Shown in pieces: positions 167 through 48,941 of a stretch of DNA of 64,000 bases. The position numbers were made by a program, and so were the translations under genes. The first letter of the stretch is position 1, and each line of letters starts with the position of its first letter. The DNA is from Escherichia phage arall. The stretch lies in sequence record MN850584.1; one strand, 5' to 3'. The notes below the pieces were generated by a model that had not been told where the DNA came from, searched no databases, and saw nothing but the letters and a program-made list of their open reading frames with translations.

Positions 167-1360
167 ATGGCAGCACCAAAATCATGGGAACAATATAAAG
201 AAGAGTGTCAACCTATTGCGAATAATAAAGGGATTGAGATCCTAGGATATGTTGAACCGTTTATAGGTTGTGATACGAAAATGATTCTACGCTGTAGGCA
301 GGAACATGAATGGAAGACTTGTAGTATTAGTAATTTCAAGCACGGTAACAGTTGTCCTATCTGTTCTGGTAAGAAGCCGTTAACATGGGAAACAGAATTG
401 CCGATCTTGGAAGAGATAGCACAGAAGAAGGGGTATCAGGTGTTAGGGTACGTTGGAGAATGGAAAGGGAATAAAACAAAACTTGATTTGTTGTGCCATT
501 GTGGGAATAGATGGCAAAGTACAGCAATTCATCAATTTAAAGGCGGTCGAGGTTGTCCACAATGTAGGGGGGAGAATACAAGGAAGGCACTAACAATGTC
601 CGACGATCAACATATTGCAGATTTCTTTTCTACAGGGAAATTTAAGGAAGGCACTATCTTCACTAACACAGGAACACGGAGTAAAGGATGCAGGCATAGT
701 ATCTGGATGGTTGAATGTCCTGTTTGCTCTCATGATGAATATGTTCAAGCAGGTGTTTGTGATGGTAAATTTTACTCTGAAGGAAATAACCTTAAACGAG
801 GGTGCATTCCGTGTCGTTGTGGGAACTATCGGTATACAGAAGACCAGATCACCTATAGGGTAAAAAAGGAAGTAGAAGGGCAAGGGTATGTCTGGGTAGG
901 TTGGATCGGTAAACCGTCTAGAAGTCACGGTAAGTTTAAATATCTTTGTCTTGTGCATGGGGAACAGACAGGGAGGGCTAATAACTTATTAAGCCTCGGT
1001 CAAGGTTGTCCACAGTGTGCTGGTCATAATCAACAGCAATTATATATTAATATTGTTAAAGATAATGATATTATAGTGGCTCTTAAGTTTGGTATAGCTA
1101 AAGATAGTGATAGGCGATTAAATAGTCAAAATAGTTGTAATATGTTTTTTATGGAGCGTATTTGTTTATATGATTTTAGCACAGTGAAACAATGTAAGGC
1201 TGCTGAAAGAGCTATAAAGAAAAAATTAAAAACTGGTATTTTAACGGAAAGAGAGTTGAAAGACGGTTATACAGAAACAGTAAGTGTTTCTGATTTGGAA
1301 AATCTTCAAGAAATTATTACACAACATGGTGGCAAATTAGTATATAATAAGGAGATGTAA
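167..1360 (+). CDS. Cys-rich repeat protein with C-terminal T5orf172/GIY-YIG-like domain (putative homing-endonuclease-like)
   Basis: RBS AGGAG upstream; three ~55-aa modules each ending GCPQC/SCPIC with upstream CxC/CH pairs; C-terminal LYINIV...KFGIAKD...RRL pattern resembles T5orf172/MUG113 fold; motif recall only. Confidence 0.55.
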   Translation: MAAPKSWEQYKEECQPIANNKGIEILGYVEPFIGCDTKMILRCRQEHEWKTCSISNFKHGNSCPICSGKKPLTWETELPILEEIAQKKGYQVLGYVGEWKGNKTKLDLLCHCGNRWQSTAIHQFKGGRGCPQCRGENTRKALTMSDDQHIADFFSTGKFKEGTIFTNTGTRSKGCRHSIWMVECPVCSHDEYVQAGVCDGKFYSEGNNLKRGCIPCRCGNYRYTEDQITYRVKKEVEGQGYVWVGWIGKPSRSHGKFKYLCLVHGEQTGRANNLLSLGQGCPQCAGHNQQQLYINIVKDNDIIVALKFGIAKDSDRRLNSQNSCNMFFMERICLYDFSTVKQCKAAERAIKKKLKTGILTERELKDGYTETVSVSDLENLQEIITQHGGKLVYNKEM

Positions 1361-1912
1361 ATGCGGATTACTGATAAGTATGTGTTCTTCTTTTCGGCAA
1401 AAGATGAATTTAGCAACTGGTATCTATCATCTTTTATTGAACCTTTAGCTCCCAAGTATAATAATTCTATCACAAGTTCTGTCGAATTTACTTGTGTGGA
1501 ACAATATATGATGTGGAGAAAAGCATGTTTGTTTTATGATTACAATATTGCATCTTCTATTTTAACCGGAGATCTAAGATATACAGGAGAAAAAGAACAA
1601 GCATATTATAAGCGACTAGGTAGATTAGTTAAAGATTATGATGAAGACACCTGGACTTCTTTACGGGAGAAGATTGTCAAACGTGGTTTGTATCTTAAAT
1701 ACACACAAAATGAAGATCTCAAAAATAAACTTATTGCTTACGCAGATAAGGAGTTCGTAGAGGCAAGCCCTTATGATTCTATTTATGGTATCAAAATGGG
1801 GATGTGGGATCGGGACGTGGAAAATAAGGATTGTTGGAAAGGACAAAATCTTTTAGGAAAATGGCATACAGACCTTGCTGTTTATCTAAAAACACAATCT
1901 GATATTTCCTGA
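1361..1912 (+). CDS. NADAR (YbiA/DUF1768)-family protein, putative ADP-ribose-processing hydrolase
   Basis: Start overlaps previous stop (TAAATG); N-terminal FFFSAKDEFSNW and internal EQYMMWRKA, ASPYDSIYGIKMG, GQNLLGKWH match NADAR/YbiA conserved blocks. Confidence 0.7.
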   Translation: MRITDKYVFFFSAKDEFSNWYLSSFIEPLAPKYNNSITSSVEFTCVEQYMMWRKACLFYDYNIASSILTGDLRYTGEKEQAYYKRLGRLVKDYDEDTWTSLREKIVKRGLYLKYTQNEDLKNKLIAYADKEFVEASPYDSIYGIKMGMWDRDVENKDCWKGQNLLGKWHTDLAVYLKTQSDIS

Positions 1913-2130
1913 TATTTTGAAAATTTTTATTTTTATAAAAAGGGGTGTGGTTTCATGTACGGAAATCCACCCTCTGAATAATATATCCAGAGTAAATATT
2001 ATTCTGTACTCTGTTAATAAAGTATTTAATTTGTTTGTTGGACTATGGTATCTGATCTTTAAAAGGTATACTATCTCTTAACTACTACTTATAACAGAAC
2101 AGTAAAATCATTTTTATAAAAAGGATAAAA

Positions 2131-2327
2131 TTATTTAAAGTTTTTACAGATTTTTGGATACAAATTTTGAAAATGAAAAGTTCAAGTTTGGTCAAAATTA
2201 TTTAAAGTTTTTGTACGTATTTCTATCCAGATTTTGAAAATGAAAACTTCAATTTTTTAAAAATTCCCCAGTTTATTTAAAGTTTTTTTGCCTTTTTCCG
2301 TAGAAAAATCAAAAATGAAAAGTTCAA
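2131..2327. repeat. Three direct repeats (~55 bp units: TTATTTAAAGTTTTT...TTTTGAAAATGAAAAGTTCAA)
   Basis: Units start at 2131, 2208 and 2273; each ends with TTGAA-N9-TTCAA inverted motif. Confidence 0.8.
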
Positions 2328-2352
2328 TTTCGTGTTTTTATGGGTGTGCGGA

Positions 2353-2409
2353 TGATAATCATTCTCACTAAGAGAATGAGAATCATTAGCAAATGAGAAT
2401 TTTTCTCAT
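2353..2409. promoter_or_regulatory. Cluster of GATAAT/GAGAAT palindromes (TGATAATCATTCTC; GAGAATGAGAATCATT; ATGAGAA-TTT-TTCTCAT)
   Basis: Perfect 7-3-7 inverted repeat at 2393-2409 plus overlapping dyads; same TGATAATCATTCT motif recurs at 12237, 12295, 13148. Confidence 0.6.
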
Positions 2410-2672
2410 TTAGAGAATAACGCGCAGGGGTGGTGTTTGTCTCGCGCTCCCGTGTCCCCTCGCCATACAATAAGAATAGCATAACCAACAACAAAAGCAA
2501 GCGATTATTTTTATCTTTACATTTCTTTACAAATTTATTTTAGACGAGCTACCGGCGATCAACCTTCCAACCAGTGCCCCCTGGTATGTTAGCCCCGCCT
2601 TTACGCCGTGGGGGTGGCGTTTCCTCTTCTGTATGTAAAACAGTATAAGCCCGATCCCTGGGCTTGTCAAGA

Positions 2673-2939
2673 TTATTTTTTGTTTTCTTGCCAGGATAGG
2701 ACACCTAACCAAAAATACATGTCGCCCCGCGCCCCTGGCGGGATCTTGCTTTCCCCGCCGCCACTGCAAGCCCATAGATAACCATTTACGAACGTATCAA
2801 AGTGATCTATCTCTTCCACCTTATGATTGCCCAGGTTGAGAACGGTTTCAACCTTTAAGCCCGTTGCGCTTGCTACCTGGTGCACCGTGCCGCCTTGCCA
2901 GCCCAATGAGTGCATGAGGTGTAAAGTAGTATTTGTCAT
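2673..2939 (-). CDS. Hypothetical protein in GC-rich island
   Basis: 88-aa ORF (MTNTTLHLMHSLGWQGGTVHQV...) with upstream minus-strand promoter-like TTGCTA-17-TATTAT and AAAGGG RBS; local GC clearly higher than flanks. Confidence 0.4.
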   Translation of the reverse strand: MTNTTLHLMHSLGWQGGTVHQVASATGLKVETVLNLGNHKVEEIDHFDTFVNGYLWACSGGGESKIPPGARGDMYFWLGVLSWQENKK

Positions 2940-2985
2940 GGTATCGCCCTTTCTTTGATGTGCGCCCTGGTTGGCGCGGTAGAAA

Positions 2986-3015
2986 GATAATAGCCCTTTC
3001 CTTTATAGATAGCAA
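2986..3015 (-). promoter_or_regulatory. Sigma70-like promoter (TTGCTA-17-TATTAT) for 2673..2939
   Basis: Consensus-like hexamers on minus strand, divergent from + strand promoter at 3056. Confidence 0.4.
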
Positions 3016-3055
3016 GCAAAAAAAAAGAAATGAAAAAAAGATTAAAAAAAAGGGG

Positions 3056-3084
3056 TTGACGTTCCTCACCTGGTAGCGTATTAT
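3056..3084 (+). promoter_or_regulatory. Sigma70-like promoter (TTGACG-17-TATTAT)
   Basis: Hexamers with 17-nt spacer; divergent partner of minus promoter. Confidence 0.45.
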
Positions 3085-3211
3085 TCATCTTGTCGAGGGG
3101 GGCGAGGCACAACGACAATAAACAAAAGGAGGGCGCAATGTAGGACGGGCAAAGGTGAGGATCTCCATAATCCACCGTCACAATAACATTACTTATAAAA
3201 GGTTGATAACG

Positions 3212-3307
3212 ATGATCAAGAAAGAAAACAGCTTGACGGTTGGAACGATTAACGCTATCATTCTAGCCGTTCCATTTTGGGTTGTAGTAGCGGTTATTAT
3301 CTTTTAA
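3212..3307 (+). CDS. Small hydrophobic peptide (31 aa, MIKKENSLTVGTINAIILAVPFWVVVAVIIF)
   Basis: ATG with AAAGG upstream, single predicted TM helix. Confidence 0.3.
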   Translation: MIKKENSLTVGTINAIILAVPFWVVVAVIIF

Positions 3308-3315
3308 AAATATTC

Positions 3316-3371
3316 TTGACAACGTTTTTTAATCTGATAAGATGTATCACATAGGGCGGCAATAGTGCCGC
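3316..3371 (+). promoter_or_regulatory. Early promoter cassette: TTGACA-16-TAAGAT + 5' hairpin GCGGCA-ATAG-TGCCGC
   Basis: Conserved module CAC-ATAGGGCGG-hairpin then AACAGAAGAGA leader and ATG at 3396. Confidence 0.7.
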
Positions 3372-3395
3372 TCATAACAGAAGAGAGAAATAATC

Positions 3396-10753: not shown

Positions 10754-11143
10754 ATGCGCAACCTGGTTTCTGTTTCTAACGTTGAAAAATTCCAATCTTT
10801 ACATGGTATCGTTAACAACGTGGCGCCTTTTTTAGTAAACGGCTTGATTGCAAAGATGAAAAATAAACATCATGCGGCATGGTCTGCTTACTGCTTTGAT
10901 AATGATGAAAAAGCGGCTGAAATGATGTTAAATATGCTGTTAGACAGTGTAGAATCATCTTTACCGGAAAACATCGCAGAAGAGATCACCTATCGTTATA
11001 ATATGGCGATCACTTACCAGGAGGTTGCGCAATTCAATATGATGGACGATGACGAACAACAGGATCAGGAAATGTTTTGGGAGTATGCAGATCGTAAATC
11101 GGCTTTTGATGAAAAGTTAGCGATGTATTATAACGAATATTAA
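10754..11143 (+). CDS. Hypothetical early protein (129 aa), acidic
   Basis: ORF after cassette. Confidence 0.6.
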   Translation: MRNLVSVSNVEKFQSLHGIVNNVAPFLVNGLIAKMKNKHHAAWSAYCFDNDEKAAEMMLNMLLDSVESSLPENIAEEITYRYNMAITYQEVAQFNMMDDDEQQDQEMFWEYADRKSAFDEKLAMYYNEY

Positions 11144-11159
11144 TACACGGTAAAAGAAA

Positions 11160-11184
11160 GGGGCGCACTAAGCGCCCTTTTTTG
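11160..11184 (+). terminator. Rho-independent terminator (GGGCGC-ACTAA-GCGCCC + TTTTTT)
   Basis: GC stem + T-run. Confidence 0.8.
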
Positions 11185-11528
11185 TATTCTTTTTTCACAA
11201 TGGAAGCGACACGTAAAGAATAGGCGTAAAGGTGGCGTAAAACCATCTAAAACCGACTGTAACCGCTTAAACAAGGTAGGAATGATTAATCACCTTACCA
11301 GGATGAAAAAGCTGTTATAAAGCTATCTAGGGCGTTTAAAGCACATAGGAAATAATTTGCTTTTTATCTTGCCTTTTATCCTGCTTTTGATTATTATTAT
11401 GGAACGGGCGGCACCTGGGGACAGGGGAAGATAATCACCGGAAGATCCCGCTATATATTAATAGCTAATACCTATTAAACAACAAAACATCAAAGGTATA
11501 AACTATCAAATCTTTACAATTCTACCTA

Positions 11529-11557
11529 TTGACACCGGATCACGCTTACACTATTAT
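11529..11557 (+). promoter_or_regulatory. Sigma70 promoter TTGACA-17-TATTAT
   Basis: Consensus hexamers; the ORF-track TTG 'start' at 11529 is the -35 element. Confidence 0.65.
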
Positions 11558-11603
11558 TTATCACGTAGGGCAAATCATTTTAAACGGTAAACGAGGAATC
11601 ACC

Positions 11604-11987
11604 ATGAGCAATATCATCAACCTGGCAGCGACTGTAAACGGTAAAGATTTTAACGGCGCTGTAGATCGTGATCCTATGTGGTGCTTATCAGTGTTTAAAG
11701 GCGATCTGGTTGAAGTTAGAACAACCGAAGGTTATAGCGACGATTATAAATGCGAGATCCATTTACATAACTGGTACACGGGTAAAACTTATGCGCTGAA
11801 TCATGCGTTTATCGGGAAAATTGAATATCGCGAGATGATCGACGAAGAAACCGGGCAAGATTTTAGCGAAAACGTTTATATTCGTTCAGAAACATTAGCC
11901 GAACGTTTGATCGAGAAAATGAAAGCAAAAAATAAAATTAATTTAACTCATTGGATTGATATAACAAACGATCCAGCTTATCAGTAA
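11604..11987 (+). CDS. Hypothetical protein (127 aa)
   Basis: ATG with RBS ACGAGGAATCACC; in frame with ORF-track entry. Confidence 0.6.
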   Translation: MSNIINLAATVNGKDFNGAVDRDPMWCLSVFKGDLVEVRTTEGYSDDYKCEIHLHNWYTGKTYALNHAFIGKIEYREMIDEETGQDFSENVYIRSETLAERLIEKMKAKNKINLTHWIDITNDPAYQ

Positions 11988-12003
11988 ATAACATTCCATA
12001 CAA

Positions 12004-12029
12004 GGGCGCACAAAGCGCCCTTTCTTTTT
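12004..12029 (+). terminator. Rho-independent terminator (GGGCGC-ACAAA-GCGCCC + TTTCTTTTT)
   Basis: GC stem + T-run. Confidence 0.8.
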
Positions 12030-12117
12030 ACCTCAATAAAGATGATAGCTTTTACCTATCAAAAACGTTCACCGAAAAAAGTGAATAGATCGCGGTATCG
12101 AGCTAATCAAGGAGCAG

Positions 12118-12258
12118 ATGAATAACCATACCATGAAGATCATAAGGCGCTTACAACGTGTTTTAGACCGCTTATTTTTAATTTCTTCATGCAACTATCT
12201 GGCAAAAACAGCCTTTTTCTTGTCTTTCCTCTTAAATGATAATCATTCTTATTTATAG
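12118..12258 (+). CDS. Possible small ORF (46 aa)
   Basis: Good RBS AAGGAGCAG-ATG but lies in otherwise non-coding AT-rich region. Confidence 0.3.
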   Translation: MNNHTMKIIRRLQRVLDRLFLISSCNYLAKTAFFLSFLLNDNHSYL

Positions 12259-12698
12259 CTGATTATTTATGCAATAAACTGCATAATTCAATAATGATAA
12301 TCATTCTTAACTTATGACCATCTAACCTATAAAATAATAAGTTATCTAACTAAATTAAAACTAATTATCTTACTTTTATTTATAACTTACTGTTACTATC
12401 TCATTGATAACCTTATATTAAACAACAATAACTAATATAAATCATTACTAAGCTAACTATAATCTATCTAACCCTTAAAACTACAACTATAATCTATCGA
12501 ATTGTTGCACAAAGTAACTATTAAATTGTTAGTAACATTGCTAAATAATTAATATCCTATCTATTTATGATCTAATCTTTACCTTCCTATTTATTACCTA
12601 ACTAATCATTTCATACAGTAATCATTGCATACAGTAACTATGACAAGAAATATAATTCGCAAGCGTATCATTAGCAGCCTATGCCGGACACATAGGCG

Positions 12699-12845
12699 GC
12701 TAATATTAACGCAACTACACACCCCACATAATAACCATCGGTGATGGTTATTATTTGTGTTTATGTAGCTTGCAACAATTGCAAGCGCAACAATATACAT
12801 GGTATATTGTATTCCCTTACATTGTTGCGGTGCGTTAATATTAGC
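12699..12845. repeat. Nested inverted-repeat complex
   Basis: Outer 15-bp IR GCTAATATTAACGCA (12699-12713) / TGCGTTAATATTAGC (12831-12845); inner perfect palindromes ATAACCATC-GGT-GATGGTTAT (12731-12751), CTTGCAA-CAA-TTGCAAG (12769-12785), CAATATAC-ATG-GTATATTG (12791-12809), IR CGCAACAAT/ATTGTTGCG. Confidence 0.85.
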
Positions 12846-13147
12846 TAATGTTTAGAACATTGGCTATAATATAAGCTGCATATAATAAGCTATACAATAA
12901 TAAACATGGTGAATAATGACCCTGATGATCATAATGCGCCACCCTCCAGGGGGCGCTATGTGTACACAAAAAATCTTTCTTGTCAAGAAAATATTAACAC
13001 TATTGCGCAAAATTATTTACAACTGAATAGATGATTTTTCATACTATTGCCCCTATAACATACCTCATTTGTTGAGCCTACTTTCTTAAAAGCGCAATAA
13101 ATCAGAATTATCTTGATTTTTAGGGCGTTTTATAGTATAGAAAATAT

Positions 13148-13166
13148 GCAAATGATAATCATTATC
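13148..13166. promoter_or_regulatory. Fur-box-like 19-mer GCAAATGATAATCATTATC
   Basis: 17/19 match to recalled E. coli Fur consensus GATAATGATAATCATTATC. Confidence 0.4.
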
Positions 13167-13332
13167 AGCTATCTTCCACGGGTGGCACTATTTCACGCCA
13201 GATCATTTCATTTGGCAAGGTGTATATAGATGTTTAGACTTGCCAAGCCATTGATTTACTTAGAATTTATCTGTTTTGTTGTGAGTAGTACCTTTCTTGC
13301 TTAGAAAATAATCAAAAGTCTTATAAGTCATT

Positions 13333-13365
13333 GAATGATAATGCAAATGATAATTATTCTCATTG
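13333..13365. promoter_or_regulatory. GATAAT-repeat element (GAATGATAATGCAAATGATAATTATTCTCATTG)
   Basis: Two GATAAT hexamers plus ATTCTCATT half-site shared with 2353-2409 cluster. Confidence 0.4.
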
Positions 13366-13809
13366 ATATTTGAGGGGGACGGTCGGCAGAAATCGGGGGG
13401 CGCTGAAAATCGCGTTAAGCACCTCTCGCAAGCGAGCAGTGTTTTGCGGCAAGTTATTGATATTATTGACTTTACGCTTATGAAAAGGGGGTGTGTCGAA
13501 ATAAATCGGGTATACCGGAAAATTTTTGTGGCATAGATATTTATTTGTCTATATTATGTACAAAGGGGTGTATTAAAAATAATAGGTATATATAGAATAA
13601 TTGATAGGGAAATCCTATACTAAATCCTTCATTAATGATGTTCCTATGTTGCTGTTCTTGTAACAGATGAAAAGACGCTATATGATGTGTGGCATGAGAC
13701 GTAAATTTATAAGATGCAAATAATGCTTGCATTGAATAGAAATGTCTATACACTGTGTTTCATAAGATATGCAATATCGCGCATAACAAACTACTAATGA
13801 GAGGTGTAA

Positions 13810-14127
13810 ATGAGAACCTTAGCTTTGTATATTGATCCTCACTCCATTCGAGAAATGCGAGATGTACAACAGGATTACGAATTCTACCCAGAAATTTGTG
13901 AACGCTATGAAACTATTCTTAGTTCTGTAGAAGATCCAGATACTAGTGAAACAGGTGCTTCCCACTTACTGTGGATGTTGAATGAAATTCAGGATGTGTG
14001 TAATGGTATGTCTGAAACCAAACACCATCGTTGGCTAGGCTATATTCAGGGTGTTATGGTTATGAAAAACCTTATTACAGTGAACGATGAACGTAATGCT
14101 ACACGCCCCGTCTTTAATGGAGCATAA
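13810..14127 (+). CDS. Hypothetical protein (105 aa)
   Basis: First ORF of co-directional array; RBS GAGG. Confidence 0.55.
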   Translation: MRTLALYIDPHSIREMRDVQQDYEFYPEICERYETILSSVEDPDTSETGASHLLWMLNEIQDVCNGMSETKHHRWLGYIQGVMVMKNLITVNDERNATRPVFNGA

Positions 14128-14128
14128 C

Positions 14129-14344
14129 ATGAAAAGCATTCAGGTGTGTATTGAAAATAATTGTGGTTATCTGGGATTGACACACGTTGCTTTCCCTCTT
14201 ATGTTAGATGCCGATATCGCTTACAGCGGAGTTGCTTATGTGTCATTCAAGACAATGAGCCAAGTACCTGGCTGGAAGTGGGGAGTAGTTGATGTTGTTG
14301 AAGGAGAAGATTATGTTTTCCTTCCACACGAATATACTGTTTAA
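14129..14344 (+). CDS. Hypothetical protein (71 aa)
   Basis: Start at MKSIQ with RBS GGAG; ORF-track upstream start overlaps previous gene. Confidence 0.5.
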   Translation: MKSIQVCIENNCGYLGLTHVAFPLMLDADIAYSGVAYVSFKTMSQVPGWKWGVVDVVEGEDYVFLPHEYTV

Positions 14345-14359
14345 AGAGAGGAAAAGAAG

Positions 14360-14530
14360 ATGGATAAACAAACTACTGTGTACTTAGTAACAAAGAATAC
14401 CCCAGGCTGGAGCCAATGCAGCACTGTCCCTTACAAGATCTGTGCAACACTAGCACAACGTGCAGAAGCAGAAGTGAATGCCATGCAATACAGCTATGGT
14501 GAGATCATTCCTTTTACTCTTGAACAATAA
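14360..14530 (+). CDS. Small protein (56 aa)
   Basis: RBS GAGAGGAAAAGAAG-ATG. Confidence 0.45.
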   Translation: MDKQTTVYLVTKNTPGWSQCSTVPYKICATLAQRAEAEVNAMQYSYGEIIPFTLEQ

Positions 14531-14541
14531 GGAGTTGTGTA

Positions 14542-14994
14542 ATGTTTGAAATTGGTAAAGTGTATCGTTTTAAGAACGCATCTTATATCCGTAAGTTTGC
14601 TAATGTGTCTGAGTGCAATAGCAGGATTGCTTCTTTCTTAGGTGATTCCTATTTTCGTGTATTAGATGTGGATGACTGGTATGGTGTCACTGCTTTGCAA
14701 TCCTTAGCAGGAGAACAAGAAATTATCGCTCAAAATGAAGGAGACTTTCTTCAGTGTTACACGTTACTTGCAAAAAGTGAGTTTGAGTATTTTGTAGAAG
14801 TCTTAGAGGAAGCACCAAAAAGTAAACACGAAGAGAAATACCTGCTTGTAGTGGATGGAGTTCCGATCATGGAAACCATCTCCCGTGAGGAAGTTGAAAA
14901 AGAGGCAAAACGTTACAAGCTGGATCGTACACAGAGTGTAGTTGAAGTCTATTCTCTTGTTGGTGTTGCAGATATTAATGTGACCATTGTATAA
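14542..14994 (+). CDS. Hypothetical protein (150 aa)
   Basis: RBS AAGGAG. Confidence 0.6.
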   Translation: MFEIGKVYRFKNASYIRKFANVSECNSRIASFLGDSYFRVLDVDDWYGVTALQSLAGEQEIIAQNEGDFLQCYTLLAKSEFEYFVEVLEEAPKSKHEEKYLLVVDGVPIMETISREEVEKEAKRYKLDRTQSVVEVYSLVGVADINVTIV

Positions 14995-14997
14995 TAT

Positions 14998-15210
14998 ATG
15001 TGTAATGACAGATACATTCTTCGTGTATCTGATAAGTCTCCTATGTTTGACTGGCGGGGCTGGTGGCTACTAGCTCCGATGCAAGGTCTGACAGACGTGG
15101 AAAAGGAGGCTTATGTGTATACAAAAGAAGAGATAGAAGATAACCTTTATTTGACAGATAACATTAAGAATGGTATCTTTGAGTGTAAATTGAAAGGAGA
15201 GGAAGAATGA
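14998..15210 (+). CDS. Hypothetical protein (70 aa)
   Basis: Tightly packed. Confidence 0.5.
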   Translation: MCNDRYILRVSDKSPMFDWRGWWLLAPMQGLTDVEKEAYVYTKEEIEDNLYLTDNIKNGIFECKLKGEEE

Positions 15211-48394: not shown

Positions 48395-48941
48395 TATTTC
48401 TCCTGTTATAACATTTTCTACACATTGTTTCGTAAATGTCTTCTCCTCCAATAACAATCTGTTCTTTAGAGTCGATAAGTCTAGCATTGAAAATAGCTTT
48501 TCTTCCACATTTACAAATGCTTTTCAATTCTGTAATTGAATCTGCTATGGCTAATAACCGTTCAGAACCTTCAAACAATTCTGTAGCAAAATCTGTTTTA
48601 AGTCCATAGCAGAATACAGGAATATCGTAATTATCTACCACATCTCCAAGAATGTCAACCATATCTTTAGTTAGGAATTGTGATTCGTCCACAAATACTG
48701 CATCTACTGGATTTTCTTTAAGCTGTGTATAAATTTCCAGCATATCTTCTTTTGTTTTAACTGGTTTTGCTTCCTCTTTAATACCTATCCTAGAAGCAAT
48801 AGCACAACCAGATCTGGTATCTAAAGCTGAAGTTAAAAGAAGAACTTTCATATTTCTTTCTTTATAGTTCCAAGCTGTTTGTAGCAGATGTGTGCTTTTA
48901 CCACTGTTCATTGGACTATATCGGAAATAAAGTTTAGCCAT
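48378..48941 (-). CDS. tdk: Thymidine kinase
   Basis: P-loop SPMNSGKST, C-terminal Zn-ribbon CKCGRKA; typical Tdk size. Confidence 0.85.
   Translation of the reverse strand: MAKLYFRYSPMNSGKSTHLLQTAWNYKERNMKVLLLTSALDTRSGCAIASRIGIKEEAKPVKTKEDMLEIYTQLKENPVDAVFVDESQFLTKDMVDILGDVVDNYDIPVFCYGLKTDFATELFEGSERLLAIADSITELKSICKCGRKAIFNARLIDSKEQIVIGGEDIYETMCRKCYNRRNNASSM

What the first reader, a model, noticed from the sequence alone, without database searches (positions are those of the whole stretch)
12030..13800. 1.8-kb non-coding AT-rich region carrying a nested palindrome complex
No convincing ORF spans this region. Positions 12699-12845 hold an outer 15-bp inverted repeat enclosing three perfect palindromes of 7 to 9 bp arms and a further 9-bp inverted repeat. 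The region also has short direct repeats (AACTATAATCTATC twice, CATACAGTAA twice) and GATAAT clusters, and it separates the promoter-per-gene early region from the packed operon-like array. This looks like a replication origin, a packaging or injection-pause signal, or a regulatory hub.
Basis: seen in the sequence. Interest (0 to 1): 0.65.

Follow-up and report, generated by a model that had tools for sequence, protein, structure and literature searches.

The report
Phage genome-end region with folded element
This gene-free stretch is where the two physical ends of a phi92-like E. coli phage chromosome meet; it holds the 343-bp terminal repeat with apparent host Fur and IHF sites and, next to it, a conserved 180-base folded element with no Rfam match that probably helps process or copy the genome ends.

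Summary
Window 11988-13809 has no credible gene, and 12660-12850 is the most palindrome-dense tile of the 64-kb window (4 perfect hairpins vs 0.15 expected; a 15-bp perfect inverted repeat). The window is a Justusliebigvirus (phi92-like, ~147 kb myovirus). The region is its genome terminus. The annotated 343-bp direct terminal repeat (DTR) of phi92 maps to 13075-13417, as one collapsed copy. Both DTR boundaries carry the same motif, GTTR|AGC, as do ends deposited separately for two other lineages. Inside the DTR, two Fur boxes flank an IHF consensus site, all conserved in position; one box is a perfect 7-1-7 match. About 230 bp left of the DTR, the nested palindromes form a ~180-nt multi-hairpin element found only in Stephanstirmvirinae. 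Across 20 variants all 960 pair cells stay paired, 13 pairs show compensatory changes, and every non-Watson-Crick cell is G.U on the minus strand. It has no Rfam match. No DnaA boxes or iterons were found. Best reading: a cis-acting terminus and packaging control region whose folded element acts as a single strand (ssDNA or RNA) in end processing. The DTR is known; no description of the other elements was found. The mechanism is inferred.

The parts
12002..12022 (+). Intrinsic terminator ending the last gene of the chromosome's right arm (Phage_30_8 / phi92 gp248 homologue, 11529-11987).
   Evidence: Terminator scan. Terminators are annotated at the same place in Paula, phAPEC8 and Schickermooser. 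Pfam PF06019 match.
12232..12308 (.). Two upstream Fur-box matches: 12232-12250 (14/19) and 12290-12308 (16/19). Their 7-1-7 cores are 12237-12251 and 12295-12309.
   Evidence: (family D1). Phapecoctavirus genomes have one box (TGATAACCATTATCA, 1 mismatch) at the equivalent place.
12300..12640 (.). AT-rich, G-poor tract (16 G in 341 nt; C>G on the + strand) with short direct repeats (12455/12485; 16-bp tandem repeat at 12603-12637).
   Evidence: The C>G skew left of the folded element is conserved in all 8 lineages tested, although the sequence is not.
12667..12849 (-). It comprises an outer stem (12699-12713 / 12831-12845), hairpins B (12728-12754), C (12768-12786) and D (12790-12810), and hairpin A (12670-12704).
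   Evidence: All 960 of 960 cells are paired and 13 pairs show compensatory changes. The covariance model scores 158 bits here, on the - strand (12674-12849).
12850..13074 (.). Variable spacer between the folded element and the terminal repeat. It contains a GC-rich hairpin (12937-12957) and the palindrome TTTCTTGTCAAGAAA (12976-12990).
   Evidence: It is poorly conserved between genera, and its length is about 190-250 nt.
13075..13417 (.). Direct terminal repeat (343 bp, a single collapsed copy). The left end of the virion DNA is at 13074|13075 (TTTGTTG|AGCC) and the right end at 13417|13418 (CGCGTTA|AGCA).
   Evidence: The DTR annotated in phi92 was mapped by blastn. The same boundaries occur in Schickermooser (exact 329 bp) and phi1_175008 (exact 343 bp). 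The PHB05 record starts at AGCCTAC. Boundary motifs are shown.
13148..13167 (.). Fur box D1: 17/19 to the consensus, with a perfect 7-1-7 core TGATAATCATTATCA at 13153-13167.
   Evidence: It is identical over 19 nt to the chuA-chuT intergenic region of E. coli. It sits at +71 to +73 from the left cut in both Justusliebigvirus and Phapecoctavirus.
13244..13256 (-). IHF consensus site (AATCAATGGCTTG on the - strand) midway between the two DTR Fur boxes.
   Evidence: The site is present at +158 to +169 in 11 of 11 sequences. The four unspecified positions vary while the specified positions do not.
13337..13374 (.). Fur box D2 (13343-13361, 15/19; 7-1-7 core 13348-13362 with 1 mismatch), with an overlapping hexamer array and the conserved flanks TAAGTCATTGAAT and TGATATTTGAGG.
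   Evidence: It is conserved in the E. coli and Klebsiella phage lineages and deleted in Citrobacter phage Tr1.
13418..13809 (+). Left-arm leader upstream of the first gene (13810). It holds a second IHF-like site (13450-13462), AAAGGGGTGT motifs (13485, 13563) and weak promoter-like sites. The insertion point of an accessory two-gene cassette in relatives is 13711/13712.

Best explanation
The region is the terminus, or concatemer junction, of a phi92-like phage chromosome. These points are shown by the tools. It carries one copy of the 343-bp direct terminal repeat (13075-13417). The repeat is bounded on both sides by the same short motif, GTTR|AGC, which I take to be the terminase cleavage site. 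Inside the repeat, two Fur boxes flank an IHF site at conserved positions. About 230 bp to the left lies a 180-nt element whose base pairing is under selection. The rest is inferred. During packaging, terminase recognises the repeat, possibly with IHF and Fur bending or marking the DNA, as IHF does at lambda cosB. It cuts or nicks at the two GTTR|AGC sites. A concatemer junction holds only one repeat copy, so the repeat must be duplicated. I propose the minus strand is nicked at the right site and displacement synthesis runs leftward. That peels off the minus strand of the repeat and then the folded element. The element then acts as a single-strand priming or assembly signal, so the displaced repeat is copied back to its end. 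This yields a complete right end. The model fits the element's position (left of the repeat) and its apparent polarity (minus strand). The Fur boxes may in addition make early transcription from the entering DNA end responsive to iron.
For: Terminus: the phi92 record annotates DTR-L at 1-343 and DTR-R at 148270-148612. These map to window 13075-13417 at 94-98% identity, with the window reading straight through the junction. Schickermooser has an exact 329-bp repeat and phi1_175008 an exact 343-bp repeat, both with the same boundary motifs. A DTR of 342 bp is reported for BME3 (PMC12210895), one of 328 bp for Schickermooser (PMC6563267), and DTRs for the subfamily as a whole (PMC12695924). Host-factor sites. 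Folded element: it folds far better than shuffles (z = -6.2 to -9.0). In 20 variants 960 of 960 cells are paired and 13 pairs show compensatory changes. No shuffle reached the observed value on four of the five measures (2 of 500 on the fifth), and slid controls paired only 26-54% of cells. All 55 non-Watson-Crick cells are G.U on the minus strand and none on the plus strand. The covariance model gives one hit per genome (148-180 bits) and none in 78 unrelated loci. The window differs from its closest relatives by a double compensatory change in the outer stem. That a hairpin species containing the terminal repeat is found during T7 infection, and that it supports primase-initiated copying of the repeat, is summarised in PMC4281155.
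Against: No experiment or read data link the folded element to packaging or replication. Its distance from the repeat varies (about 190-250 nt). With DNA parameters both strands fold equally well. The minus-strand call rests on about 5 unbiased independent changes, all in the direction of the local C>G composition skew, so mutation bias could mimic it. The Fur and IHF sites are consensus matches only, and each Fur box has been lost in some lineage: D1 in the Klebsiella phages and D2 in Tr1. Repeated ATTAGC hexamers could be protein-binding sites instead. The cut chemistry and the strand nicked are unknown.
Confidence: 0.5

Rival explanations
1. The folded element is a non-coding RNA transcribed leftward from the minus strand. 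It could be a structured regulatory RNA. Alternatively it could act like ColE1 RNA II: a folded transcript that runs into the purine- and G-rich (on that strand) AT-rich tract at 12640-12300 and forms an R-loop that primes replication. That would make the region a transcription-dependent origin.
For: G.U pairs occur only on the minus strand. The RNA fold is clearly better on the minus strand (-82.6 vs -71.0 kcal/mol). The conserved C>G skew on the plus strand left of the element makes the minus strand resemble the sense strand of genes in this phage. Sequences resembling a -10 hexamer (TATAAT, TACAAT, TAGAAT) sit directly 5' of the outer stem in several lineages.
Against: No conserved sigma-70 promoter and no intrinsic terminator flank the element on the minus strand. 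There is no Rfam match. No transcriptome data were found. A start site 7 nt after the -10-like hexamers would fall inside the outer stem. The skew could also serve as a Rho-loading site for plus-strand read-through.
Confidence: 0.3
2. The region is only a transcription control region. Fur- and IHF-regulated early promoters at the entering DNA end drive the first genes (13810 onward). The hairpins act as terminators or insulators that stop read-through from the right-arm genes across the junction.
For: Four Fur boxes and two IHF-like sites lie upstream of the first gene array. A conserved TTGATT followed 17 nt later by TA precedes Fur box D1. Hairpin B followed by a T-rich run is flagged as terminator-like. 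Promoter-like sites occur in the leader.
Against: Promoter-like hits are not enriched over shuffles (17 vs 14.9) and none is conserved across genera. On the plus strand the one-sided changes break pairs (A.C), which is not expected for a plus-strand terminator. A long-range 15-bp outer stem with covariation is not a terminator feature. This reading does not explain the identical cut motifs or why the physical ends lie here.
Confidence: 0.15
3. The palindromes act as double-stranded DNA, either as operators for dimeric proteins (for example small terminase or an initiator binding the ATTAGC / GCTAAT and GCTTGCAA repeats) or as cruciforms. The arm-to-arm covariation would then reflect co-evolution with a protein rather than base pairing.
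For: Hairpin C (GCTTGCAA..TTGCAAGC) and the ATTAGC / GCTAAT hexamers are invariant in all 20 variants. Extra ATTAGC copies lie to the right of the element in Tr1 and the Klebsiella phages.
Against: Hairpins A and B and the outer stem change sequence freely while keeping complementarity, whereas operators usually conserve sequence. The strict one-strand G.T pattern is unexpected for duplex recognition. An outer stem with a 117-nt interior cannot extrude as a simple cruciform.
Confidence: 0.07

Closest known systems
Direct terminal repeat termini of phi92 and other Stephanstirmvirinae (GenBank FR775895.2; BME3, PMC12210895; Schickermooser, PMC6563267)
   Same: Homologous sequence (94-98% to phi92), the same 343-bp repeat, the same boundaries, and the same flanking genes.
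   Different: Those sources give only the length and position of the repeat. In the sources read here I found no description of the cut-site motif, the Fur and IHF sites or the neighbouring folded element.
Bacteriophage T7 concatemer junction (160-bp repeat; a hairpin species containing the terminal repeat is found during infection: Chung & Hinkle 1990, as summarised in PMC4281155)
   Same: A short direct repeat that must be duplicated at each junction. In T7 a hairpin intermediate is taken to support primase-initiated copying of the repeat.
   Different: There is no sequence similarity. T7 is a podovirus with its own RNA polymerase and a pause site at the junction. The element here is a 180-nt multi-branch fold rather than one hairpin. 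No intermediates have been observed here. Any detail of the T7 model beyond the summary in PMC4281155 is from memory.
Lambda cos (cosQ-cosN-cosB with IHF site I1) and P1 pac (hexamer clusters flanking an IHF site)
   Same: A packaging site built from short repeated protein-binding elements around a host IHF site. Lambda also carries a perfect TGATAATCATTATCA box 35-50 bp from its right end.
   Different: Lambda makes 12-nt cohesive ends and P1 packages by headful, and neither has a terminal repeat. The roles of the lambda and P1 elements are stated from established knowledge and were not tested here. No function is known to me for the lambda Fur-type box.
E. coli Fur operator (19-bp GATAATGATAATCATTATC; 7-1-7 TGATAATNATTATCA)
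   Same: Matches of 17/19 and a perfect 7-1-7 core. The site is identical over 19 nt to the chuT upstream region.
   Different: The sites lie in a virulent phage's terminal repeat, not in front of an iron-uptake gene. Overlap with a promoter has not been demonstrated.
Single-strand initiation signals (G4-type origin of complementary-strand synthesis, the phiX174 primosome assembly site, the M13 minus-strand origin, F plasmid Frpo) and ColE1 RNA II
   Same: Clusters of conserved hairpins that work only as one single strand to start priming. RNA II is a folded transcript that primes at an origin.
   Different: There is no sequence or Rfam similarity. The resemblance is in architecture only, is recalled from knowledge, and was not tested.

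Membership tests
Stephanstirmvirinae direct terminal repeat (genome terminus) | Sequence homologous to a repeat annotated at both ends of a related virion genome. | tested here: met
   The phi92 DTR at 1-343 and 148270-148612 maps to window 13075-13417. The left-end alignment is 97.7% identical and the right-end alignment 94.3%.
Stephanstirmvirinae direct terminal repeat (genome terminus) | An exact duplicate of the repeat at both ends of the linear DNA. | not testable with these tools
   The window holds one collapsed copy. In relatives the repeats are exact: 329 bp in Schickermooser and 343 bp in phi1_175008. Read data for this phage are needed.
Stephanstirmvirinae direct terminal repeat (genome terminus) | Conserved boundary sequences at the ends. 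| tested here: met
   GTTG|AGC on the left and CGCGTTA|AGCAC on the right, in all 11 lineages aligned. The PHB05 record starts at AGCCTAC.
Fur operator (E. coli Fur regulon) | Match to the 19-bp consensus or the 7-1-7 motif, above chance. | tested here: met
   The four sites score 17/19, 16/19, 15/19 and 14/19, and one has a perfect 7-1-7 core. Matches of at least 15/19 number 8 in the window against 0.6 expected. One site is identical to the chuT upstream region.
Fur operator (E. coli Fur regulon) | Overlap with a promoter that it represses. | tested here: inconclusive
   Only weak, non-conserved promoter-like hexamers overlap the boxes.
Fur operator (E. coli Fur regulon) | Binding by Fur with Fe2+ or Mn2+, and iron-dependent regulation. 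| not testable with these tools
   This needs EMSA or footprinting, a Fur titration assay, or infection of a fur mutant.
IHF binding site | WATCAANNNNTTR consensus, conserved in position. | tested here: met
   The site at 13244-13256 (- strand) is present in 11 of 11 sequences at +158 to +169 from the left cut, and its N positions vary. Binding was not tested.
Any described RNA family (Rfam 15) | A covariance-model match at or near the gathering score. | tested here: not met
   Nothing in 11000-15000 on either strand at E<=1 except a chance microRNA hit at 14400.
Structured single-stranded element (RNA or ssDNA) under selection | Base pairs maintained by compensatory substitutions across homologues. 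| tested here: met
   Of 48 pairs, 13 have changes on both sides. All cells are paired, against 92.8% in shuffles and 26-54% in slid controls.
DnaA- or iteron-type replication origin | DnaA boxes or an array of iterons next to an AT-rich unwinding region. | tested here: not met
   There are 0 strict and 0 relaxed DnaA boxes, and only one 2.2-copy 16-bp tandem repeat. An AT-rich tract is present.
T7-type junction hairpin used to duplicate the terminal repeat | Hairpin-ended or nicked DNA intermediates at the junction during infection. | not testable with these tools
   Only the presence and position of the hairpin-forming element (left of the repeat) could be checked.

The most novel reading that the evidence does not exclude
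The 180-nt element is a previously undescribed class of structured nucleic acid (a minus-strand ssDNA signal or RNA) that is required to regenerate the terminal repeat or to start replication at the chromosome end in a large family of therapeutic coliphages. In addition, these phages recruit the abundant host iron regulator Fur, together with IHF, as architectural or protective factors on their DNA ends. That idea is echoed by the perfect Fur-type box 35-50 bp from lambda's right cohesive end.
Probability: 0.25. Interest if true: 0.8.

Novelty: new variant of a known kind. Interest (0 to 1): 0.6.

Why it matters
Phi92- and phAPEC8-like phages are broad-host-range viruses widely isolated for therapy, yet the papers I could search say little about how their ends are made beyond 'has a DTR'. 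This region now gives a concrete, testable parts list: two identical candidate cut sites, an IHF site, Fur boxes and a covarying folded element. If the element is needed to duplicate the repeat, it would give a second, independent example, in a different phage type, of the poorly resolved step first studied in T7. It would also define sequences that must be kept intact when these genomes are engineered or rebooted. Fur sites in a virulent phage's terminal repeat would link infection to host iron status, or reveal a new use of Fur. At minimum, assemblies and annotations of this subfamily could use the GTTR|AGC motifs to set genome starts consistently. Annotators should also stop calling the many spurious small ORFs in this region; some records list up to 12.

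Tried and rejected
1. My first guess was the T5 first-step-transfer injection-stop region. BLAST showed the window is a Justusliebigvirus, so I rejected it.

2. The gapped pattern GCCGGACAC-N60-90-GCTTGCAA, run against the metagenome and IMG/VR collections, was too loose. It returned about 200 loci. A profile filter kept only L013-L016, which are Stephanstirmvirinae contigs.

3. Rfam gave nothing on either strand.

4. Sigma-70 promoter and terminator scans were not informative. Promoter-like hits are not enriched (17 vs 14.9), and no promoter or terminator flanking the element is conserved between genera.

5. DnaA boxes, iterons and GATC clustering were all absent or not enriched.

6. Literature searches found nothing on Fur sites in virulent phages or on nohA with Fur, and no transcriptomes of these phages. 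Absence from this library does not prove the findings are new.

7. The GGGGTGT-type repeat is too rare to be a general phage promoter, with 4 plus-strand copies in 64 kb.

8. I considered whether the second non-coding region (about 1913-3390) holds a similar RNA. Its fold is no better than shuffles (z = 0.15) and it has no Rfam hit.

9. Folding with DNA parameters did not separate the two strands.
Full report

Yes. Window 11988-13809 has no ORF longer than 70 aa on either strand. Its GC content is the lowest in this part of the window, at 0.31-0.35.

The outer inverted repeat 12699-12713 / 12831-12845 is 15/15 complementary. It encloses these features:
- hairpin B, 12728-12754, with 12-bp arms
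- hairpin C, 12768-12786, with 8-bp arms
- hairpin D, 12790-12810, with 9-bp arms
- the 9-bp repeat at 12786-12794 / 12821-12829

A fourth hairpin, A (12677-12697, extendable to 12670-12704), lies just to the left.

This is not chance. The 191-nt tile holds 4 perfect hairpins against 0.15 in 1000 shuffles. Its 15-bp repeat exceeds the maximum of 10 seen in shuffles. It is the top-ranked tile of the whole 64-kb window.

The short direct repeats and the GATAAT excess (8 against 2.2 expected) are also real.

**2. What genome is this, and where in it?**

The region is 92-96% identical to Justusliebigvirus genomes such as alia, JohannJBalmer, Paula, inny and phi92. It is about 73-77% identical, in patches, to Phapecoctavirus and to related Klebsiella and Citrobacter phages. 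All are Stephanstirmvirinae.

In annotated relatives the genes to the left are homologues of the last phi92 genes (gp243-248). The genes to the right are homologues of the first (gp001/002 onward).

The phi92 record annotates a 343-bp direct terminal repeat at 1-343 and 148270-148612. By blastn, the phi92 right end aligns to window 11555-13417 and its left end to 13075-13637. The repeat therefore corresponds to 13075-13417. The window holds one collapsed copy and reads straight across the concatemer junction.

Other evidence agrees:
- Several other records begin or end within about 20 bp of 13075, and PHB05 starts exactly at AGCCTAC.
- Schickermooser, a different genus, has an exact 329-bp repeat at the equivalent place.
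- The linear record of Klebsiella phage phi1_175008 has an exact 343-bp repeat.
- The literature reports 328 bp for Schickermooser (PMC6563267), 342 bp by PhageTerm for BME3 (PMC12210895), and direct terminal repeats for the subfamily in general (PMC12695924).

So the flagged 'divider' is where the two physical ends of the chromosome meet.

**3. Anatomy of the repeat**

Both boundaries carry the same motif in every lineage aligned...TGTTG|AGC(A/C) on the left and ...TCGCGTTA|AGCAC on the right, that is GTTR|AGC. In Phapecoctavirus the bases after each cut are also alike (AGCACYTCT). The ends of three lineages, deposited separately, give these same boundaries. I therefore read GTTR|AGC as the terminase cleavage motif, but that is an inference.

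Within the repeat only short islands are conserved across genera:
- TCTTGATTT (13111-13119)
- a Fur box (13148-13166)
- TTGCCAA.CCATTGAT (13240-13256)
- TAAGTYATTGAAT, then a second Fur box (13343-13361), then TGATATTTGRG

The island at 13244-13256 matches the IHF consensus WATCAANNNNTTR on the minus strand. It does so in 11 of 11 sequences, at +158 to +169 from the left cut. The four N positions vary while the specified positions do not. That pattern is expected of a real site.

**4. The Fur boxes**

Repeat family D1 matches the 19-bp Fur consensus at four places:

| Position | Match | Location |
|---|---|---|
| 12232 | 14/19 | upstream of the folded element |
| 12290 | 16/19 | upstream of the folded element |
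| 13148 | 17/19 | inside the DTR |
| 13343 | 15/19 | inside the DTR |

The site at 13153-13167 is a perfect 7-1-7 motif. Window-wide, matches of at least 15/19 number 8, against 0.6 expected. Five of the eight lie in two non-coding regions.

The two DTR boxes keep their offsets in both genera: about +72, and +256 or +268. Phapecoctavirus also has an upstream box.

The best box is identical over 19 nt to a sequence about 29 nt upstream of chuT in the chuA-chuT intergenic region. From established knowledge, that heme-uptake locus is Fur-repressed.

Individual boxes have been lost in some lineages: D1 in the Klebsiella phages and D2 in Tr1. Binding and regulation remain untested.

**5. The palindrome complex is a conserved folded element**

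Aligning nine and then twenty distinct variants shows a ~180-nt block (window 12667-12849). It is conserved even where the flanking DNA cannot be aligned.

The arms of hairpin A, hairpin B and the outer stem change between lineages but stay complementary. Examples:
- Hairpin A: GCCTATG/CATAGGC, CGCTATG/CATAGCG and CGCTACG/CGTAGCG.
- Hairpin B: CCATC/GATGG, CTATC/GATAG, and GAAACTATT/AATAGTTTC.
- Outer stem: ...ATTAACGCA, ...AATAAGCCA and ...AATACCGCA, each with the matching partner.

The window itself differs from its nearest relatives by a paired A/T swap in the outer stem.

On the minus-strand alignment RNAalifold predicts 48 pairs. Of these, 13 show changes on both sides and no cell is broken. 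On the plus strand, 9 cells are broken, all of them A.C.

The pair-count controls are clear:

| Measure | Observed | Controls |
|---|---|---|
| Cells paired | 100% | 92.8% in shuffles; 26-54% when partners are slid |
| Covariation score | 0.227 | 0.097 in shuffles |

No shuffle reached the observed value on four of the five measures; 2 of 500 did on the fifth.

Using one alignment and the mirrored structure, the minus strand pairs 960 of 960 cells, 55 of them G.U. The plus strand pairs 905 of 960, with no G.U at all.

The element folds far better than shuffles as RNA (z = -6.2 for plus, -8.5 for minus) and as DNA (z = -8.0 and -9.0).

A covariance model finds exactly one strong hit per genome on the expected strand (148-180 bits). 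It finds nothing in 78 unrelated loci or elsewhere in the window. There is no Rfam match.

Outside Stephanstirmvirinae no homologue was found. The roughly 200 loci returned by the pattern scans of IMG/VR and the metagenome collection were all chance matches apart from four Stephanstirmvirinae contigs.

Hairpin C and the ATTAGC/GCTAAT hexamers never vary. Hairpin A's loop is invariant within the E. coli phages. Hairpin B's loop flips between GGT and ACC among close relatives, which is the mark of template switching at a DNA hairpin.

**6. Which strand, and is it RNA or DNA?**

Three observations favour the minus strand:
- the one-sided G.U pattern
- the better RNA fold
- a conserved C>G skew on the plus strand for 300-400 nt to the left (16 G in 341 nt here), given that coding strands in this phage are G-rich

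There are caveats:
- Only about five of the one-sided changes are independent and free of prediction bias.
- All of them run in the direction of the local skew, so mutation bias could mimic selection.
- As ssDNA the two strands are equally stable.

I found no conserved promoter or terminator that would define a discrete RNA, and no transcriptome data. I therefore cannot decide between ssDNA and RNA.

**7. Mechanism**

Shown: the ends lie here, identical motifs bound the repeat, host-factor consensus sites occupy fixed positions, and the neighbouring element is selected for pairing.

Inferred: terminase cuts or nicks at the two GTTR|AGC sites, perhaps on DNA shaped by IHF and Fur, as IHF acts at lambda cosB (established knowledge). 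A junction has only one repeat copy, so it must be duplicated.

My proposed sequence of events is:
1. The minus strand is nicked at the right site.
2. Leftward displacement synthesis frees the minus strand of the repeat and then the folded element.
3. The element nucleates priming, so the displaced repeat is copied out to its 5' end, giving a complete right end.

This is the primase-initiated variant of the T7 models summarised in PMC4281155. It fits the element's location and apparent polarity.

Rivals:
- A leftward structured RNA, possibly priming replication through an R-loop into the AT-rich tract, as in ColE1 RNA II.
- A purely transcriptional Fur/IHF control region, with the hairpins acting as insulators.
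- Duplex operators or cruciforms.

A DnaA- or iteron-type origin is not supported.

**8. Rest of the region**

The leader (13418-13809) is collinear with relatives. The exception is that inny and Paula carry a ~718-bp cassette of two small paralogous genes at 13711/13712, which this phage and phi92 lack.

**9. Novelty**

The terminal repeat is known for this subfamily. I found no description, in the records or papers I could search, of the boundary motif, the conserved IHF and Fur sites within the repeat, or the covarying folded element. That is not proof of absence.

I rate the finding a new variant of a known kind (a phage terminus or packaging region with new cis-elements), with interest 0.6.

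The most novel reading not excluded has two parts. The element would be a new class of structured signal needed to regenerate the ends. Fur and IHF would be used on phage DNA ends. A perfect Fur-type box sits 35-50 bp from lambda's right end, which hints that the second idea may reach beyond this family.

Noticed in passing
Phage lambda J02459.1 about 48453-48467 (seen via L217 1211-1225, Qin prophage upstream of nohA): A perfect Fur-type 7-1-7 box (TGATAATCATTATCA), identical to the one in this phage's terminal repeat, lies 35-50 bp from lambda's right end, next to cosQ/cosN. The 91-nt Qin sequence is 100% identical to lambda 48412-48502. I know of no described function for it.
   Followed up: partly
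window 1913-3390: This is a second non-coding-looking stretch. It has three ~63-bp repeats (2127-2331), a Fur-box cluster (2348-2407, with 15/19 and 16/19 matches), an AAAGGGGTGT motif at 1940 and an 88-aa minus-strand ORF (2673-2939, phrog_19316). Part of it (about 2392-2640) is conserved as far as Salmonella PVP-SE1, Klebsiella and Erwinia phages. It has no Rfam hit and no significant fold (z = 0.15).
   Followed up: partly
window 12740-12742 (hairpin B loop); L214 (AV125) hairpin left of the DTR cut: Palindrome centres are inverted between close relatives: GGT in the window versus ACC in phi92 and inny, and GCGTAGCG versus GCTACGCG in Phapecoctavirus. This is the signature of template switching at hairpins in DNA.
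   Followed up: partly
L005, L007, L011, L211 (just left of the left DTR cut): Phapecoctavirus, Tr1 and the Klebsiella phages have a GC-rich hairpin that ends 2-4 nt before the left cut site, and its arms covary (ATCGCGTAGCGAT, CCGCCACAGGCGG, ACCGCATAGCGGT, AGCGCGATCAGCGCT). The window and phi92 lack it.
   Followed up: no
window 13711/13712; L001 4753-5470: An accessory cassette of two small paralogous genes (phAPEC8_0019-like, VOG7392) is present in inny and Paula but absent here and in phi92, with a clean junction.
   Followed up: yes
window 1940, 13485, 13563, 61094: The motif A(A/G)GGGG(G)TGT occurs only four times on the plus strand, each time in a non-coding stretch or at a strand-switch point. 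It may be a binding site for a phage regulator.
   Followed up: no
window 167-1912: Two adjacent genes: a CapR-domain / T5orf172 endonuclease-like gene (167-1360) and a NADAR-domain gene (1361-1912). NADAR domains act on ADP-ribose, so this may be a counter-defence pair.
   Followed up: no
GenBank MG065639, MG065645, MG065656, MG065689: Records labelled 'Campylobacter phage' (host C. jejuni) are about 95.6% identical to this E. coli phage region. They are probably mislabelled or contaminant coliphage genomes.
   Followed up: no
PP925843, PQ529420, PV682554 and other records: Some deposited genomes annotate 9-12 'hypothetical proteins' inside this gene-free terminus region. These are almost certainly spurious ORF calls.
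   Followed up: no
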